Shown piece after piece: positions 37,731-58,355 of a stretch of 63,830 bases of DNA (within the stretch, counting starts at the first letter, position 1; every line of letters starts with the position of its first letter). The translations under genes were made by a program, and so were the position numbers. The DNA comes from an uncultured Bacilli bacterium (GTDB taxonomy: Bacteria > Bacillota_I > Bacilli_A > RF39 > UBA660): assembly GCA_947631035.1 (NCBI GenBank), contig CANRJW010000003.1:1-63830 (forward strand), read 5' to 3'. The notes beneath the pieces are model-generated. The model had not been told where the DNA came from and made no database searches. It saw only the letters and a list, made by a program, of their open reading frames with translations.

Positions 37731-38006
37731 ATGGCGTTTAGAAATTTAAACATTAAAGTTGATAGCCACTTAAAAAAAGAGGCAGAAGAATTATTTAAAA
37801 GACTGGGCCTTAATATGACTAGTGCTATTAATGTTTTTTTAACTCAAAGCGTTAAAGAACAAGCTATTCCATTTGAGATTAGCGATAAAAAAAATAGTAA
37901 AAAATTATTAAAATCATTAAAAGAAGCCGAAAAAATGTCACAACATCCTGAAAAATATAAATGGTATACTGATACAAAAACATTATTTGAAAATTTGGAT
38001 AAATAG
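37731..38006 (+). CDS. RelB/DinJ-family antitoxin-like protein, no adjacent toxin gene
   Basis: NLNIKVDSHLKKEAEELFKRLGLNMTSAINVFLTQSVKEQAIPFEI matches the DinJ/RelB RHH domain. Confidence 0.65.
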   Translation: MAFRNLNIKVDSHLKKEAEELFKRLGLNMTSAINVFLTQSVKEQAIPFEISDKKNSKKLLKSLKEAEKMSQHPEKYKWYTDTKTLFENLDK

Positions 38007-38032
38007 TGGATTATAAAGTCCGGTATAAAAAG

Positions 38033-38055
38033 GAGAAAAAGAATTCTCTTTTTTT
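38033..38055 (+). terminator. Weak rho-independent terminator
   Basis: Stem gagaa/ttctc (5 bp), 6-nt loop, 7 T. Confidence 0.35.
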
Positions 38056-38061
38056 GATGTC

Positions 38062-38090
38062 TTGTCAAAAGACGAAAAAAAGAGTAGAAT
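38062..38090 (+). promoter_or_regulatory. Conserved cassette promoter (TTGTCA-17-TAGAAT), paralog 1
   Basis: The same hexamers and 17-nt spacing occur at 53849-53877 and 58270-58298. RBS GGAGGAG at 38104-38110 and ATG at 38119. Confidence 0.6.
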
Positions 38091-38128
38091 AAAAGTAAGA
38101 TATGGAGGAGAAAGACAAATGAAAAAAT

Positions 38129-40252
38129 TTGGAAAGAACCTCCCAACCGAGCGAAATAGTCGTCTGGGGGGGGGGTTATTATTTAGATAATAATAGAAAG
38201 GAACCAAGACGACGAATCAAAATAATGCTAGTAGGAATTATAGCAGGATTATTAATTTTAGTAGGAACAAGTTATGCGTGGTGGACATCAACCGCAACGC
38301 AACAAGGGATTAATGAAGTGCAAAGTAGTTGTATTAAAGTAGCCATACAAAATGAAACAGGAGATATAAAACTACCAAATGCATATCCATTAACAGATAA
38401 ACAAGCAGAAGATTTAACACCCTATCAATTTACAATAACCAATACTTGTAAAACAATAGTAGATTATACAGTGAAATTAGAAAAGCTAATGGAAATTAAT
38501 GGACAAGAAGATAAATTATTAAATAGTAAGTATATAGCGGTAGAGTTTAATGGAGGACAAAAAGAACTACTATCAAACTATCCAATAGGAAACATAACTT
38601 ATGATGGAGAAGATTATATCTCAAAAGAAGCAAGAGAATTAATAAAAGGAACCTTAAACGGAACATTAGAAGGAGAAAACACGAAAACCTATACACTAAA
38701 ACTATGGATGGACGAAAGTGTTACCGCTACTGACGATTCAATGAATAAAAGTTTTATTAGTAAAATAGTAGTAGATGGAAGTTTAAATGAATTAGCGGTT
38801 TATAATGAACCAAAATTACATGGAGCAGACCCAGTATTAGGGAATGAAGGAAGTAAAGAAGAAGTAGCCATGCTATCAACACTAGCAGAAGCAGACCCAA
38901 CAACAAGTGATAAACTAATACCAGTTATAATAGATAATGAAGGAAAAGTAACAAGAGCAGATTTATCCCATGAATGGTATAACTATGAAGAGAAGAGATG
39001 GGCGAATGCAGTTATACTTGTTGATGGAGTAGAAGAACCAGACGTAGGAGCAGAAATAAAAGAAAGTGATATTGAAAGTTATTTTGTATGGATACCAAAG
39101 TATAAATATAAAATATTCGATATGGGAGATTATACTCAAGTATTACAAAATGGAAGTGAACTACCAGATAAAGGACCAAATACAGCAATCGAGATAATCT
39201 TTGGGGATACTGATACAACCAATACAGGAACAACAAATGGAGAGAGCGAATGTGAAAGTCCAAATGAAAGTGGACAAGACGGACAATGTGCTGTTGGCAA
39301 GTGGATGACCCATCCAGCATTTCTAGCTTTCGGAGGAAATGGATTATGGGTTGGTAAATTTGAAACTGGATATGAAGGAGCAACGAGTACAAATGATGCT
39401 CAAAGTGAAGAAAAAACTAATATAGAAGGTCCTGACAAGGTAATCATAAAACCAAATGTGTTTGCTTGGAGAAATATAAGTATAGGAAATGCTTTCAAAA
39501 CATCCCTTGCTTATCAAAGAAAATTAGATTCCCACTTAATGAAGAATACAGAATGGGGAGCAGTTGCTTATCTTACTCAAAGTATTTATGGAAGATGTGC
39601 TGATTCAAATACATGTGAAGAAGTAAGAATCAATAATAATTCTAGTTTTTTAACCGGTTATGTAGCAAAAATATCCCCTACAAATGGATTTACTAATACG
39701 AGTGAATCTTGTACCTTATATCCAGAAGCTTGCAACGAAAGTGGAACTTCAGATAAAGGAAAAGACGGAGACGTAAATTATCAATACTTTAATACGGAGA
39801 GTGTCAAAGCAAGCACTACAAACAATTATAGCGGAATCTATGATATGAGTGGAGGCTCTTGGGAATATGTTGCTGGCTATATGAGTGGGAACGTTGGCCA
39901 AAGTGATTTAAAAGAAGAAACGGATTTAACTGAGAACAATGCCAAATATTATGATAAATATTTAAACACAAGTAATACACAATATAATATGAGAATACTA
40001 GGAGATGCTACAGGAGAGATGGGACCATTTGTAACTAGAATATATAGTCCAAAGAATAATAACCAAGCACAGACTCGAACGGTGAGCGGTTGGTTTTATG
40101 ACGATAGTTGGTTTATTTATAGTGAAAATCCTTGGTTTGTTCGTGGTGGGGATTGCTATGACGGGTTAGGGAGTGGTATTTTTACTTCGTTTCGTCTAAA
40201 TGGCGGTCTAGCCAAGTATACTTTCCGTATCGTTCTCGCTCCAGAAATATAA
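38129..40252 (+). CDS. Membrane-anchored surface protein with C-terminal FGE-sulfatase (SUMF1)-like domain, paralog 1; the RBS-served ATG at 38119 is out of frame at G10
   Basis: TM MLVGIIAGLLILVGTSYAWW. Motifs LMKNTEWGAVAYL, GIYDMSGGSWEYV, VRGGDCY, FRIVLAP resemble the Pfam FGE-sulfatase pattern (EaEWEyAAR, GLyDMsGNVWEW, RGGSW, GFR). The ORF-track TTG start at 38129 has no RBS. Confidence 0.6.
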   Translation: MERTSQPSEIVVWGGGYYLDNNRKEPRRRIKIMLVGIIAGLLILVGTSYAWWTSTATQQGINEVQSSCIKVAIQNETGDIKLPNAYPLTDKQAEDLTPYQFTITNTCKTIVDYTVKLEKLMEINGQEDKLLNSKYIAVEFNGGQKELLSNYPIGNITYDGEDYISKEARELIKGTLNGTLEGENTKTYTLKLWMDESVTATDDSMNKSFISKIVVDGSLNELAVYNEPKLHGADPVLGNEGSKEEVAMLSTLAEADPTTSDKLIPVIIDNEGKVTRADLSHEWYNYEEKRWANAVILVDGVEEPDVGAEIKESDIESYFVWIPKYKYKIFDMGDYTQVLQNGSELPDKGPNTAIEIIFGDTDTTNTGTTNGESECESPNESGQDGQCAVGKWMTHPAFLAFGGNGLWVGKFETGYEGATSTNDAQSEEKTNIEGPDKVIIKPNVFAWRNISIGNAFKTSLAYQRKLDSHLMKNTEWGAVAYLTQSIYGRCADSNTCEEVRINNNSSFLTGYVAKISPTNGFTNTSESCTLYPEACNESGTSDKGKDGDVNYQYFNTESVKASTTNNYSGIYDMSGGSWEYVAGYMSGNVGQSDLKEETDLTENNAKYYDKYLNTSNTQYNMRILGDATGEMGPFVTRIYSPKNNNQAQTRTVSGWFYDDSWFIYSENPWFVRGGDCYDGLGSGIFTSFRLNGGLAKYTFRIVLAPEI
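38166..38175 (+). repeat. G10 homopolymer inside the 5' coding leader (candidate phase-variation tract), paralog 1
   Basis: cgtctGGGGGGGGGGttatt. The ATG-38119 frame stops at 38188-38190 with G10. G9 or G12 would fuse it to the 707-aa ORF. Confidence 0.8.
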
Positions 40253-53848: not shown

Positions 53849-53877
53849 TTGTCAAAACTTCAAAAAAAGAGTAGAAT
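53849..53877 (+). promoter_or_regulatory. Conserved cassette promoter (TTGTCA-17-TAGAAT), paralog 2
   Basis: Identical hexamers and spacing to the other two copies. RBS GGAGGAG at 53891-53897 and ATG at 53906. Confidence 0.6.
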
Positions 53878-53952
53878 TAGATTAAGATATGGAGGAGAAA
53901 AACAAATGAAAGAATTTGAGAAGAACCTCCCAACCAGTGAAAATAGTCGTCT

Positions 53953-53962
53953 GGGGGGGGGG
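53953..53962 (+). repeat. G10 homopolymer in the 5' leader, paralog 2
   Basis: cgtctGGGGGGGGGGtatatt. The ATG-53906 frame stops at 53972-53974. Confidence 0.8.
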
Positions 53963-54097
53963 TATATTAAATAATAATAAGAATCCAGAGGACTTAAAGC
54001 GATTTAATAAACATAAAAAACAAAAACAAATATCATTGGAAGTATAATAGCAATCGTATTAATAATTGGAGGTATAAGTCTATACCGAAGTTTTGCT

Positions 54098-55525
54098 ATG
54101 TATGAAGAAAAGAAAACTTTTGATGTTTTAAAAGGAACTATACCTGACTTTAGACCTATCTATAAAGAAAAACTACTTAATGGAACAGATCCAGTATTAA
54201 AAGAAAATTTAATACCAGTAGAAATAAACGAAAGTAATGGAGAAGTAACAAAAGCAGATATAAGAGAAACCTGGTATAAATATGAAGAACATAAATGGGC
54301 GAATGCAGTAATACTAAAGGAAGGTGCAACAGAACTAGAAGTAGGAGCAGAAATACAAGAAAGTGATATTGAAAGTTATTTTGTATGGATACCGAAATAT
54401 AAATATAAAATATTTGATATGGAAAAATATACAACATCAGGAGTAGTAAAAGATAAATCCCAAAAAGCGATTGAAATAAAGTTTGGCACAGACAATACAA
54501 CAGATGACGGGGAAATAGATGGAGAATCAACATGCAAAACGCCTATGATAAACGAAGTACAAGGAGCATCAGGAAGTGACGGAAAATGTCAAAAAGATTA
54601 TTGGATGACGCATCCTGCATTTCTAGCATTTGACGCAACAGGTTTTTGGGTTGGCAAGTTTGAAACCGGATATGCAGGAGCAAATAGTGTAACAGATGCT
54701 CAAGCGCATAATAATGCAACTGAAGCAAATAAAATTGTTATTAAGCCCAATCAATATAGTTGGAGAAATATAAGTTTAGGAAATGCATTCAGAACTTCAT
54801 TGAACTATGAAACAAATTTACAAAGTCACTTAATGAAGAATACCGAGTGGGGAGCGGTTGCTTATTTAACACATAGTATTTATGGAAAGTGTGAAAGCAG
54901 TGACAACTGTACAGAAATAATGATAAATAATAGTCAAAATTGTATTACTGGGATGTCAGCTAAAAATAAACCTACAACTGGCTATCCAGCATACAAAGAT
55001 TATAAAACATCTACTCCAAAAACAAATAATGATATTTCATGGACGTATACAGATAAAAATAGTGTATTAGCTAGTACTAGTGGAAACTATAGTGGTATTT
55101 ATGATATGAGTGGTGGAGTGTGGGAAGAAACAGCTAGTTTTATGTATCAAAGTGGTAACTCTAACATCAATTATAGTAAAAGTGGAATGAATGATAACGA
55201 TTTAACGGATAAAAAATATTATGATGTGTATAATTATAGTGTTTTAATTACAGAGTATAACAAACGTATATTAGGCGATGCTACTGGGGAATTAGGGCCA
55301 TTTGGTGTAGTTATCAAGGGTCAAGATATTATGAGTTCCATGTTTGCTGATTATGCCAATTTTTTATCTAATAATTCTTATTTGTCTGGGGCATGTTTTA
55401 CTCGAGGTGGTGATTCTGTTAATGGTACAGATGCCGGTGTATTTGCTTTTGATGAATATCCTGGAGTTAATGGCGATTTGGTTGGCTTTCGTGTTGTGCT
55501 AGCTCCGACGGAAGAAAAATCATGA
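54098..55525 (+). CDS. FGE-sulfatase-like surface protein paralog 2; 5' end disrupted twice (G10 plus a 1-nt deletion), possibly a pseudogene or silent copy
   Basis: The long ORF starts at an internal Met lacking an RBS. The TM-coding segment IIGSIIAIVLIIGGISLY (54032-54085) is in this frame but is cut off from the leader. Shared motifs: LMKNTEWGAVAYL, GIYDMSGGVWEE, TRGGDS, FRVVLAP. Confidence 0.55.
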   Translation: MYEEKKTFDVLKGTIPDFRPIYKEKLLNGTDPVLKENLIPVEINESNGEVTKADIRETWYKYEEHKWANAVILKEGATELEVGAEIQESDIESYFVWIPKYKYKIFDMEKYTTSGVVKDKSQKAIEIKFGTDNTTDDGEIDGESTCKTPMINEVQGASGSDGKCQKDYWMTHPAFLAFDATGFWVGKFETGYAGANSVTDAQAHNNATEANKIVIKPNQYSWRNISLGNAFRTSLNYETNLQSHLMKNTEWGAVAYLTHSIYGKCESSDNCTEIMINNSQNCITGMSAKNKPTTGYPAYKDYKTSTPKTNNDISWTYTDKNSVLASTSGNYSGIYDMSGGVWEETASFMYQSGNSNINYSKSGMNDNDLTDKKYYDVYNYSVLITEYNKRILGDATGELGPFGVVIKGQDIMSSMFADYANFLSNNSYLSGACFTRGGDSVNGTDAGVFAFDEYPGVNGDLVGFRVVLAPTEEKS

Positions 55526-58269: not shown

Positions 58270-58298
58270 TTGTCAAAATTGGAAAAAGAGTGTAGAAT
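58270..58298 (+). promoter_or_regulatory. Conserved cassette promoter (TTGTCA-17-TAGAAT), paralog 3
   Basis: Same hexamers and spacing as the other copies. RBS GGAGGA at 58312-58317 and ATG at 58325. Confidence 0.6.
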
Positions 58299-58355
58299 TA
58301 GATTAAGATATGGAGGAAAGAGAAATGAATAGTTTCAAAAAGAACCTCCCAACCA

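What the first reader, a model, noticed from the sequence alone, without database searches (positions are those of the whole stretch)
38062..38190. Paralog 1: a G10 tract in the coding leader separates the RBS-served ATG from a 707-aa ORF (candidate phase-variable switch, currently OFF)
TTGTCA-17-TAGAAT, GGAGGAG and the ATG at 38119 encode MKKFGKNLPTERNSRLGGG. With 10 G (38166-38175) this frame ends at the TAA at 38188-38190. The long ORF lies in the +1 frame, and loss of one G (G9) or gain of two (G12) fuses them to give MKKFGKNLPTERNSRLGGGYYLDNNRKEP...TM. The TTG at 38129 used by the ORF track is 18 nt from the RBS and is unlikely to initiate. A G10 run in such an AT-rich genome is very improbable by chance, and it recurs at the same position in two paralogs. 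This is the classic signature of slipped-strand contingency loci.
Basis: seen in the sequence. Interest (0 to 1): 0.75.

Follow-up and report, generated by a model that had tools for sequence, protein, structure and literature searches.

The report
Poly-G frame switch on surface-protein genes
Three related surface-protein genes in this gut Clostridia-like genome each carry a run of ten G's just after the start codon that puts the gene out of frame, so they look like slippage-driven on/off (phase-variable) genes, a known kind of switch that is little documented in this group of bacteria.

Summary
G10 lies at 38166-38175. The RBS-served ATG at 38119 stops at TAA 38188. The 707-codon ORF is in the +1 frame, and G9 or G12 fuses the two. 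The window (31% GC) has no other G run longer than 5 except two more G10 tracts, at 53953 and 58372. Each sits in the same roughly 115-nt module (promoter, SD, ATG, leader, tract) in front of a paralog.

Comparative data support a real, length-variable switch. The orthologous site in another sample has G11. Homologs elsewhere read in frame through the same leader and Gly3 (G9-like, one G12-like). Others are +1, some have interrupted in-frame tracts, and many paralogs lack the module. The product is a signal-anchored, beta-rich protein with an FGE/C-type-lectin-like C-terminal domain.

There are caveats. At least 10 distinct loci in this clade are all G10 and OFF, with one G11. Replicate samples rarely differ. 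The standard leader also folds into a conserved hairpin (-21 to -23.5 kcal/mol) that pairs CCUCCC with the tract and is written in rare codons. RNA-level slippage or frameshifting therefore cannot be excluded. Paralog 2 has a second frameshift and cannot be rescued by the tract alone.

Verdict: a new member of a known kind (contingency locus). Confidence about 0.65.

The parts
38062..38090 (+). Sigma-70-type promoter of paralog 1 (TTGTCA, 17-nt spacer, TAGAAT)
   Evidence: 10 of 12 matches. The same hexamers and spacing occur at 53849-53877 and 58270-58298.
38104..38110 (+). Shine-Dalgarno sequence GGAGGAG, 8 nt before the ATG
   Evidence: Conserved in all standard leaders.
38119..38190 (+). 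Leader reading frame as it stands at G10 (23 codons plus TAA). In the ON state it would form the N-terminal cytoplasmic tail.
   Evidence: Differences between copies preserve frame 0: a 3-nt indel in L001 and a synonymous GAG/GAA change in L004.
38138..38176 (+). Predicted leader hairpin. CCUCCC (38139-38144) pairs with the last six G's, CC pairs with the first two G's, and there is an inner stem.
   Evidence: dG -23.5 kcal/mol, z -3.9. The same fold appears in 6 leader variants. Both arms are invariant across the 9 leader sequences aligned. The arms use rare codons: CTC is 1.7% and CTG 1.4% of Leu codons.
38166..38175 (+). G10 homopolymer, the frame switch of paralog 1
38129..40252 (+). Main ORF of paralog 1 (+1 frame, 707 codons open). 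It encodes a signal-anchor helix (from 38228), beta-sandwich domains and a C-terminal FGE/C-type-lectin-like domain.
53849..53974 (+). Paralog 2 module: promoter (53849-53877), ATG 53906, G10 53953-53962, frame-0 stop 53972-53974
54017..55525 (+). Paralog 2 body. A second 1-nt deletion near 54031 puts the body back in the ATG frame but leaves the stretch from the tract to the deletion in +1. This is probably a pseudogene or a two-hit locus.
58270..58393 (+). Paralog 3 module: promoter (58270-58298), ATG 58325, G10 58372-58381, frame-0 stop 58391-58393
58356..59999 (+). Paralog 3 main ORF (+1 frame). G9 gives a 557-aa fusion.

Best explanation
The G10 tract is a hypermutable simple-sequence repeat placed 47 nt into the translated leader of a multigene family of surface proteins. 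Transcription and initiation at the SD-served ATG are presumably constitutive. Whether the ribosome reaches the 550-710-codon body depends on the tract length in the DNA. G9 (or G12) is ON. G10 and G11 are OFF and give a 22-24-aa peptide. Slipped-strand mispairing during replication changes the length by one G, so each paralog switches independently and stochastically, with G10 (OFF) as the modal state in this clade.

Shown here: the tract, the frames, the shared 5' module, between-assembly length and frame variation, and the predicted surface-protein nature of the product.

Inferred: that switching is frequent and reversible within a population, and that DNA slippage rather than RNA-level slippage is the main route to expression.
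For: - The tract is non-random and unique to these three genes.
- Frame arithmetic: G9 and G12 give full-length proteins, other lengths give 21-24 aa.
- A discrete 5' module is 81-88% identical between paralogs, while its flanks are 52-58% identical.
- Orthologous site: G10 in the window and L025, G11 in L024.
- In-frame homologs through the same leader and Gly3: P0022, P0050, P0178, P0255, P0256, P0257, P0259, P0263, P0276, plus P0260 with Gly4 (G12-like). There are +1-state homologs and interrupted in-frame tracts (LGRG, LGEG, LGG).
- Paralogs in the same genomes have ordinary MKK/MKLEKF N-termini and no module (P0006, P0154, P0151 in L034).
- G10 is in frame in L032/L033.
- The downstream ORFs are intact in all loci except paralog 2.
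- Product: TM helix, beta domains, and a best fold match to the DGR variable protein TaqVP (E 7e-8). FGE-sulfatase is sub-threshold in 18 of 65 members.
- Precedent for a sharply modal tract length set by mutational bias: C. jejuni, with a modal length of 9 and a shift from insertions at G8 to deletions at G11 (PMC3401435).
Against: - At DNA level, at least 10 distinct loci with the standard leader in this clade are all G10, with one G11 and no G9.
- Where loci were recovered from two or more samples, the tract length was the same, with a single exception, and that exception comes from an assembly at about 4x coverage.
- No read-level heterogeneity could be examined.
- A relative encodes a full MutS (L021), so mismatch repair is probably present.
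- The invariant hairpin, written in rare codons, suggests an additional RNA-level function that plain phase variation does not need.
Confidence: 0.65

Rival explanations
1. Programmed RNA-level recoding. G10 out of frame is the selected, stable genotype. A fraction of full-length protein is made either because RNA polymerase drops one G on the C10 template, helped by the nascent hairpin that abuts and invades the tract, or because ribosomes shift +1 on the GGG GGG GGG run of rare codons.
For: - G10 with the body in +1 recurs at the DNA-level loci with the standard leader (10 or more). It also occurs with two other leader types: the inferred NERSV type in P0173 and P0223, and the MAKIVH type in L036.
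- The loss of one nucleotide needed here is what a stem-loop placed 5' of a slippery motif produces in Roseiflexus IS630. Runs of 9 identical bases slip efficiently in vivo (PMC5009743).
- The hairpin is conserved and stable.
- GGG is only 8% of Gly codons.
Against: - Many relatives read in frame through the tract, and L032 has G10 in frame.
- L036 keeps G10/+1 without any hairpin.
- The hairpin's 3' arm is the tract itself, not a stem preceding it as in IS630.
- The 0-frame stop is 4 codons downstream, not at the shift site.
- Efficient bacterial RNAP slippage is documented for A/T runs. I found no G-run data.
- A G10 tract would mutate at the DNA level in any case.
Confidence: 0.15
2. Initiation in the +1 frame (TTG 38129, GTG 58356 and similar), so that G10 is already ON and the upstream ATG only encodes a short overlapping uORF.
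For: The +1 frame is open across the tract. Gene callers produced MKIVVWGGG or MGGG N-termini for several homologs. P0071 (MEGVLFKSKK) starts at the equivalent ATG without a tract.
Against: None of these starts is preceded by an SD. The spacing from the only SD is 18-22 nt. The +1-frame start codon is not conserved: there is none near the tract in L017, L019, L034 or L001.
Confidence: 0.07
3. Homopolymer miscall in the assembly. The true tract would be a fixed G9 and the genes simply intact.
For: The assemblies are low-coverage metagenomes (about 4x for several contigs). All three tracts are off by the same single base.
Against: The same G10 is found in independent assemblies from at least three projects. 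A systematic +1 overcall would break L032/L033, where G10 is in frame. G11 and G9-type states are also recorded.
Confidence: 0.05
4. Decaying pseudogene family: the frameshifts are simply inactivating mutations.
For: Paralog 2 carries a second frameshift. In relatives, an integrative element separates the leader from the ORF.
Against: ORFs of 550-710 codons stay open after the tract in every other locus. The disruption is always at the pure G tract. The tract is kept uninterrupted across paralogs that have diverged to about 45% protein identity.
Confidence: 0.05

Closest known systems
Campylobacter jejuni poly-G/C contingency genes
   Same: An AT-rich genome (about 30% GC) in which G runs of 8-11 are confined to a set of surface-related genes. 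Intragenic tracts toggle the reading frame, and tract length is sharply modal (PMC3401435).
   Different: Here the organism is a Gram-positive-type spore-forming gut Clostridia MAG with mutS present in a relative. The tract sits in a portable 5' module shared by a paralog family rather than at unrelated positions in unrelated genes. The modal length is 10, and nearly all copies are OFF.
Neisseria opa genes (CTCTT repeats in the signal-peptide coding region)
   Same: A multigene family of surface proteins. The repeat lies in the leader-coding region. Control is translational on a transcribed gene, most copies are OFF at any time, and the 5' ends are conserved among paralogs. (Comparison from general knowledge.)
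   Different: The repeat there is a pentamer rather than a homopolymer, and the proteins are unrelated (outer-membrane beta-barrels rather than a signal-anchored FGE/CLec-fold protein).
Roseiflexus IS630 stem-loop-dependent transcriptional slippage; Thermus thermophilus dnaX T9 slippage
   Same: A gene kept out of frame, a slippery run, and a nascent-RNA stem-loop next to it. Loss of one nucleotide restores the frame (PMC5009743).
   Different: In IS630 the stem precedes a T5C5 motif. Here the 3' arm of the stem is the G tract. Slippage was not shown here, and in-frame relatives exist.
FGE-sulfatase / C-type-lectin-fold variable proteins of diversity-generating retroelements (TaqVP, PDB 5vf4)
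   Same: Best structural match for the C-terminal domain (Foldseek E 7e-8). The GIYDMSGG.WE and RGG...GFR motifs are typical of the FGE fold.
   Different: The Pfam score is below threshold. No retroelement was looked for or seen near the genes. Diversity here would come from paralogs and on/off switching, not from mutagenic retrohoming.

Membership tests
SSR-mediated translational phase-variable (contingency) locus | Uninterrupted simple-sequence repeat of mutable length (7 or more) inside the translated region | tested here: met
   G10 at 38166-38175, 47 nt after the SD-served ATG. Expected number by chance is 0.00.
SSR-mediated translational phase-variable (contingency) locus | A repeat-number change of one unit toggles between full-length and truncated product | tested here: met
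   G9 and G12 give 710/711 aa. G10 and G11 give 22-23 aa. The same holds for paralog 3, but not for paralog 2.
SSR-mediated translational phase-variable (contingency) locus | Tract length and frame differ between strains or related genomes | tested here: met
   G10 vs G11 at the orthologous site (low coverage). In-frame, +1 and G12-like homologs exist. However, at least 10 loci in this clade are uniformly G10.
SSR-mediated translational phase-variable (contingency) locus | Length heterogeneity within one population, with high-frequency reversible switching | not testable with these tools
   No reads or cultures are available. Contigs often break at the module, but the repeated leader explains that.
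SSR-mediated translational phase-variable (contingency) locus | The product acts at the cell surface or in host/phage interaction | tested here: met
   By prediction only: N-terminal TM helix, beta-sandwich domains and a CLec/FGE-like domain. pLDDT 87.6.
Programmed transcriptional slippage | Out-of-frame arrangement conserved across orthologs and paralogs | tested here: inconclusive
   G10/+1 at 19 loci or proteins with three leader types. At least 10 relatives are in frame, and L032 has G10 in frame.
Programmed transcriptional slippage | Stimulatory nascent-RNA structure adjacent to the slippery run | tested here: inconclusive
   A stable conserved hairpin is present in the standard leader. 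Both arms are invariant, so there is no covariation to test. The hairpin is absent from L036, which is also G10/+1.
Programmed transcriptional slippage | mRNA population heterogeneous in run length relative to DNA | not testable with these tools
   No transcript data are available.
prfB-type +1 ribosomal frameshift | Shift codon followed immediately by a 0-frame stop or hungry codon, with an SD-like element about 3 nt upstream | tested here: not met
   The 0-frame stop is 4 codons after the tract, and the codons in between differ among paralogs. Only the G run itself is SD-like.
FGE-sulfatase (PF03781) domain protein | Pfam gathering score reached | tested here: not met
   14.9 bits against a cutoff of 23.3 for P0001. 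18 of 65 members hit at E<=1, with a best E of 6.9e-5. Fold-level similarity to TaqVP supports a distant relationship.

The most novel reading that the evidence does not exclude
The out-of-frame G10 is the maintained genotype. The conserved leader hairpin has the tract itself as its 3' arm. It would drive RNA polymerase (or the ribosome, on rare GGG codons) to lose one G at a set frequency. That would give a two-tier switch: constant low-level RNA-level expression from OFF alleles, on top of DNA-level phase variation. This would be the first hairpin-assisted poly-G transcriptional realignment controlling a cellular surface-protein family.
Probability: 0.15. Interest if true: 0.8.

Novelty: new member of a known kind. 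Interest (0 to 1): 0.5.

Why it matters
In the papers searched here, phase variation in Clostridia appeared only as invertible DNA switches. My searches found no description of homopolymer contingency loci in this group. Here a whole family of predicted ligand-binding surface proteins, with at least 10 copies across assemblies of related uncultured gut bacteria, carries a portable promoter-leader-G10 cassette. If the tracts do switch, these bacteria generate combinatorial surface diversity much as Campylobacter and Neisseria do. That bears on immune (IgA) evasion, phage resistance and strain tracking in metagenomes. There is also a practical point. Gene callers truncate or mis-start these genes (MLVGII..., MKIVVWGGG..., MGGG...), so the family is systematically mis-annotated. 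The uniform G10 and the leader hairpin offer a clean test case for separating DNA-level from RNA-level slippage.

Tried and rejected
- Exact-pattern scans for AAATAGTCGTCTGGGGGG in genome contigs and metagenome contigs gave mostly chance hits in GC-rich genomes. Only L001 and L004 were relevant.
- A profile search with a 10-sequence leader alignment found nothing at E<=10.
- Look-ups of NCBI-only proteins (P0022, P0004) were not on record, so no ON-state standard leader could be inspected as DNA.
- An RpoB-based look-up showed that the nearest relative lacks paralog 2 downstream of rpoC, so no orthologous comparison was possible there.
- Rfam had no family in the window. There are no tRNAs. 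The leader shows no terminator-like site, so an attenuator reading has no support. CCTCCC is not enriched in the window as a whole.
- The PDB sequence profile search gave no hit.
- Cluster look-ups gave no organism names, and accession searches in the literature gave nothing.
- Literature searches found no description of this family or of poly-G switches in Clostridia.
- +1-frame internal initiation was considered and set aside as a general mechanism, because the start codons are not conserved and lack an SD.
Full report
**Observation**

The sequence is as described.
- TTGTCA (38062), a 17-nt spacer and TAGAAT (38085-38090) score 10 of 12 as a sigma-70-type promoter.
- GGAGGAG (38104-38110) lies 8 nt before the ATG at 38119.
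- The G run covers 38166-38175 (ten G's).
- The ATG frame ends at TAA 38188-38190 after MKKFGKNLPTERNSRLGGGLLFR.
- The 707-codon ORF (38129-40252) is in the +1 frame.

Editing the tract in silico gives 710 aa at G9 and 711 aa at G12. At G7, G8, G10, G11 and G13 it gives 21-24 aa.

The window is 31% GC. Its G runs have lengths 1-5 and then exactly three runs of 10, and it has no C run above 5. Shuffles predict zero G10 runs.

The other two tracts are at 53953-53962 and 58372-58381. They sit at the same position in the same leader in front of two paralogs. These are the only three family members in the window.

**Anatomy of the module**

The three copies share a discrete block of about 115 nt. 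It runs from the -35 box to the last G and is 81-88% identical between paralogs. DNA 200 nt further upstream, and the gene bodies, align at only 52-58%. The exception is paralogs 2 and 3, which also share the next 150 nt.

Within the leader, AACCTCCCAACC and AATAGTCGTCTG-G(n) are invariant across the 9 leader sequences aligned (eight distinct leaders plus the G11 allele of the L1 site). These come from this window and from related contigs. Only five nucleotides between these two blocks vary, plus one position just 5' of CCTCCC (AAC/AGC in L034). The changes keep frame 0: a 3-nt indel in L001 and a synonymous GAG/GAA change in L004.

The invariant parts are written in codons this genome avoids. 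CTC is 1.7% and CTG 1.4% of Leu codons, ACC is 16% of Thr, AAC is 19% of Asn, and GGG is 8% of Gly. The constraint is therefore on the nucleotides, not the peptide.

All standard leaders fold into the same hairpin. CCUCCC pairs with the last six G's. CC pairs with the first two G's. Two G's face AA in an internal loop. A short inner stem differs in sequence between copies but still pairs. dG is -21 to -23.5 kcal/mol for 42-45 nt, and z is -3.0 to -4.3. A G9 version folds the same way (-20.8 kcal/mol). Because both arms are invariant, no covariation test is possible. The structure is a conserved prediction, not a demonstrated one.

**The protein**

The family is large: more than 3800 and more than 5700 hits in two searches. 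It is unnamed, has no Pfam family at threshold, and comes almost entirely from metagenome assemblies.

An AlphaFold model of the window protein (pLDDT 87.6, pTM 0.84) shows three parts: an N-terminal helix (the MLVGIIAGLLILVG signal anchor), beta-sandwich domains, and a large C-terminal domain. The best PDB match for that domain is the variable protein TaqVP of a diversity-generating retroelement (E 7e-8). FGE-sulfatase hits 18 of 65 members below threshold.

The product is best read as a signal-anchored or secreted binding protein with an FGE/C-type-lectin-like fold.

The window is ordinary chromosome. It contains rpoB, rpoC, recX, transketolase, rmuC and relB. Related contigs carry sporulation genes (CotZ, CotE, a STAS protein next to a sigma-70-family factor gene) and are labelled uncultured Clostridia.

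**Comparative evidence on the tract**

DNA could be recovered for many related loci.

*Standard leader, G10, body in +1:*
- window L1, L2 and L3
- L001 (another species)
- L014
- L016
- L017
- L018/L019
- L024:5667
- L025 (orthologous to L1)
- L034:9498 = L035:6582
- L034:12690 = L035:9774

*Other lengths and leader types:*
- The RelB-flanked site orthologous to L1 has G11 in a different sample (L024:4436). There the downstream cassette is also a different, shorter paralog.
- A shorter leader (L036, ATGGCAAAAATAGTACATG-G10) is again +1 relative to its SD-served ATG and has no hairpin.
- A more distant species has a fourth leader (ATGAAGAAAGTAAAAAAGACAAAG-G10) next to recX. There G10 is in frame in at least two samples (L032/L033).

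*States inferred from called proteins:*
- In frame through the leader and Gly3 (G9-like): P0022, P0050, P0178, P0255, P0256, P0257, P0259, P0263, P0276.
- Gly4 (G12-like): P0260.
- +1 reads (…VVWGGG, …QWGGG, …IWGGG, …LWGGG, G10-like): P0004, P0008, P0015, P0152, P0173, P0223, P0270, P0298.
- MGGG starts like L036: P0038, P0067, P0301, P0311, P0312, P0321.
- Interrupted or short in-frame tracts: LGG in P0258, LGRG in P0262, LGEG in P0284.

Most family members, including some in the same genomes (for example P0151 in L034), have a plain MKK… or MKLEKF… N-terminus with no module.

These protein-level counts are biased. G8 and G11 states cannot be seen, because a TAG precedes the tract in that frame. 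Cluster representatives also favour long (ON) forms.

**Interpretation**

The data fit a contingency locus:
- a pure, improbable repeat in the translated leader;
- frames that toggle with one unit;
- a mixture of in-frame, out-of-frame and locked (interrupted) versions across relatives;
- a length difference at an orthologous site;
- a surface protein as the product;
- a paralog family whose members can each be switched.

An in-frame G10 (L032) coexists with out-of-frame G10 tracts elsewhere. This rules out a uniform one-base assembly artefact. A sharply modal tract length is known from C. jejuni, where it is attributed to a shift from insertions to deletions as tracts lengthen (PMC3401435). 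G10 as the common state is therefore not in itself anomalous.

I take this as the best explanation, at about 0.65.

**What does not fit neatly**

- Within the clade that includes the window, every one of at least 10 distinct loci is OFF. All but one are exactly G10.
- Loci recovered from two or more samples were identical in tract length, with one exception.
- A relative encodes MutS.
- The leader hairpin is conserved at the nucleotide level, and plain phase variation does not require it.

Loss of one G from the RNA would restore the frame. A nascent stem-loop next to a slippery motif produces exactly such a deletion in Roseiflexus IS630, and runs of nine identical bases slip efficiently in bacteria (PMC5009743). 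Three rare GGG codons in a run are also an obvious ribosomal +1 site.

Several points count against this reading as the main mechanism:
- many relatives are in frame;
- L036 is G10/+1 without a hairpin;
- the hairpin geometry differs from IS630, because the tract is the 3' arm;
- the 0-frame stop is four codons away.

I give RNA-level recoding about 0.15. It could also coexist with DNA slippage.

Internal initiation in the +1 frame (TTG 38129, GTG 58356) is unlikely. There is no SD, the spacing is 18-22 nt, and the start codons are not conserved.

Pseudogenisation is unlikely for L1 and L3 because their bodies are intact. It probably does apply to paralog 2, which has a further 1-nt deletion near 54031.

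**Comparison with known systems**

The switch works like the C. jejuni poly-G genes and, in architecture, like the Neisseria opa genes: a repeat in the leader-coding region of a surface-protein family with conserved 5' ends. It meets the sequence-level criteria of a contingency locus. The population-level criterion (heterogeneity, reversibility) could not be tested. It is not a prfB-type frameshift site.

The literature searches found no description of this family or of homopolymer switches in Clostridia. It is a new member of a known kind. A small chance remains that the hairpin makes it a new variant.

**Verdict**

Interest is moderate (0.5). The decisive data are read-level tract lengths and a gDNA-versus-cDNA comparison.

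Noticed in passing
window 54017-54040 (paralog 2): Paralog 2 has a second 1-nt deletion near 54031 (CAAAT-ATCATTGG against CAAATAATAATAGG in paralog 3). Correcting the tract to G9 therefore gives only a 46-aa product. The gene body is in the ATG frame, but the stretch from the tract to the deletion is in +1. This is probably a pseudogene or a sequencing error.
   Followed up: partly
L015:1652-3699 and L004:2375-2440; protein P0269: In relatives, an element with a large serine recombinase sits exactly at the G tract. L004 has promoter, leader and G7 followed by AGATTTCAGTATATACCCAAAA. L015 has ...TTTTGGGTATATCCTTTATTCT followed by G9 and the ORF, with no leader. The two element ends are imperfect inverted repeats (17 of 22), like attL/attR. 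P0002 (MGISFILGGG) and P0269 (MGITFALGGG) are read-throughs of such junctions. The tract may therefore serve as an integration site that disconnects the gene from its promoter.
   Followed up: partly
L024:4276-5706 compared with window 38006-40252: In another sample, the same RelB-flanked site carries a different, shorter paralog (L3-like N-terminus, about 367 codons open). It is followed directly by a second module with G10. Cassettes appear to be exchanged or inserted at the conserved 5' module.
   Followed up: no
L018, L025, L034, L024, L026-L028 contig ends: Metagenome contigs repeatedly start or stop within about 30 nt of the tract. The multicopy leader repeat explains this, but tract-length bubbles would produce the same effect. 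The family is also mis-started by gene callers (MLVGII..., MKIVVWGGG..., MGGG...).
   Followed up: partly
window 37731-38006; L018:2442-3023; L015:8751-9035; L021:12339-12939; L016:6562-6753; L034:4492-4725: RelB-type antitoxin genes (one with ParE) and small XRE-family HTH genes lie next to several family loci in different genomes, often divergently just upstream. A possible regulatory or mobility link was not examined.
   Followed up: no
L001:1473 (- strand): A separate G9 tract in the same MAG contig, in an unrelated context (…ATGAATCC-G9-TACAAACAC…). It may be another switch.
   Followed up: no
window 38807-40240, 54149-55504, 58788-59990: The C-terminal domain resembles the FGE/C-type-lectin fold of variable proteins from diversity-generating retroelements (TaqVP). 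I did not check for a reverse transcriptase or template repeat in the window.
   Followed up: no
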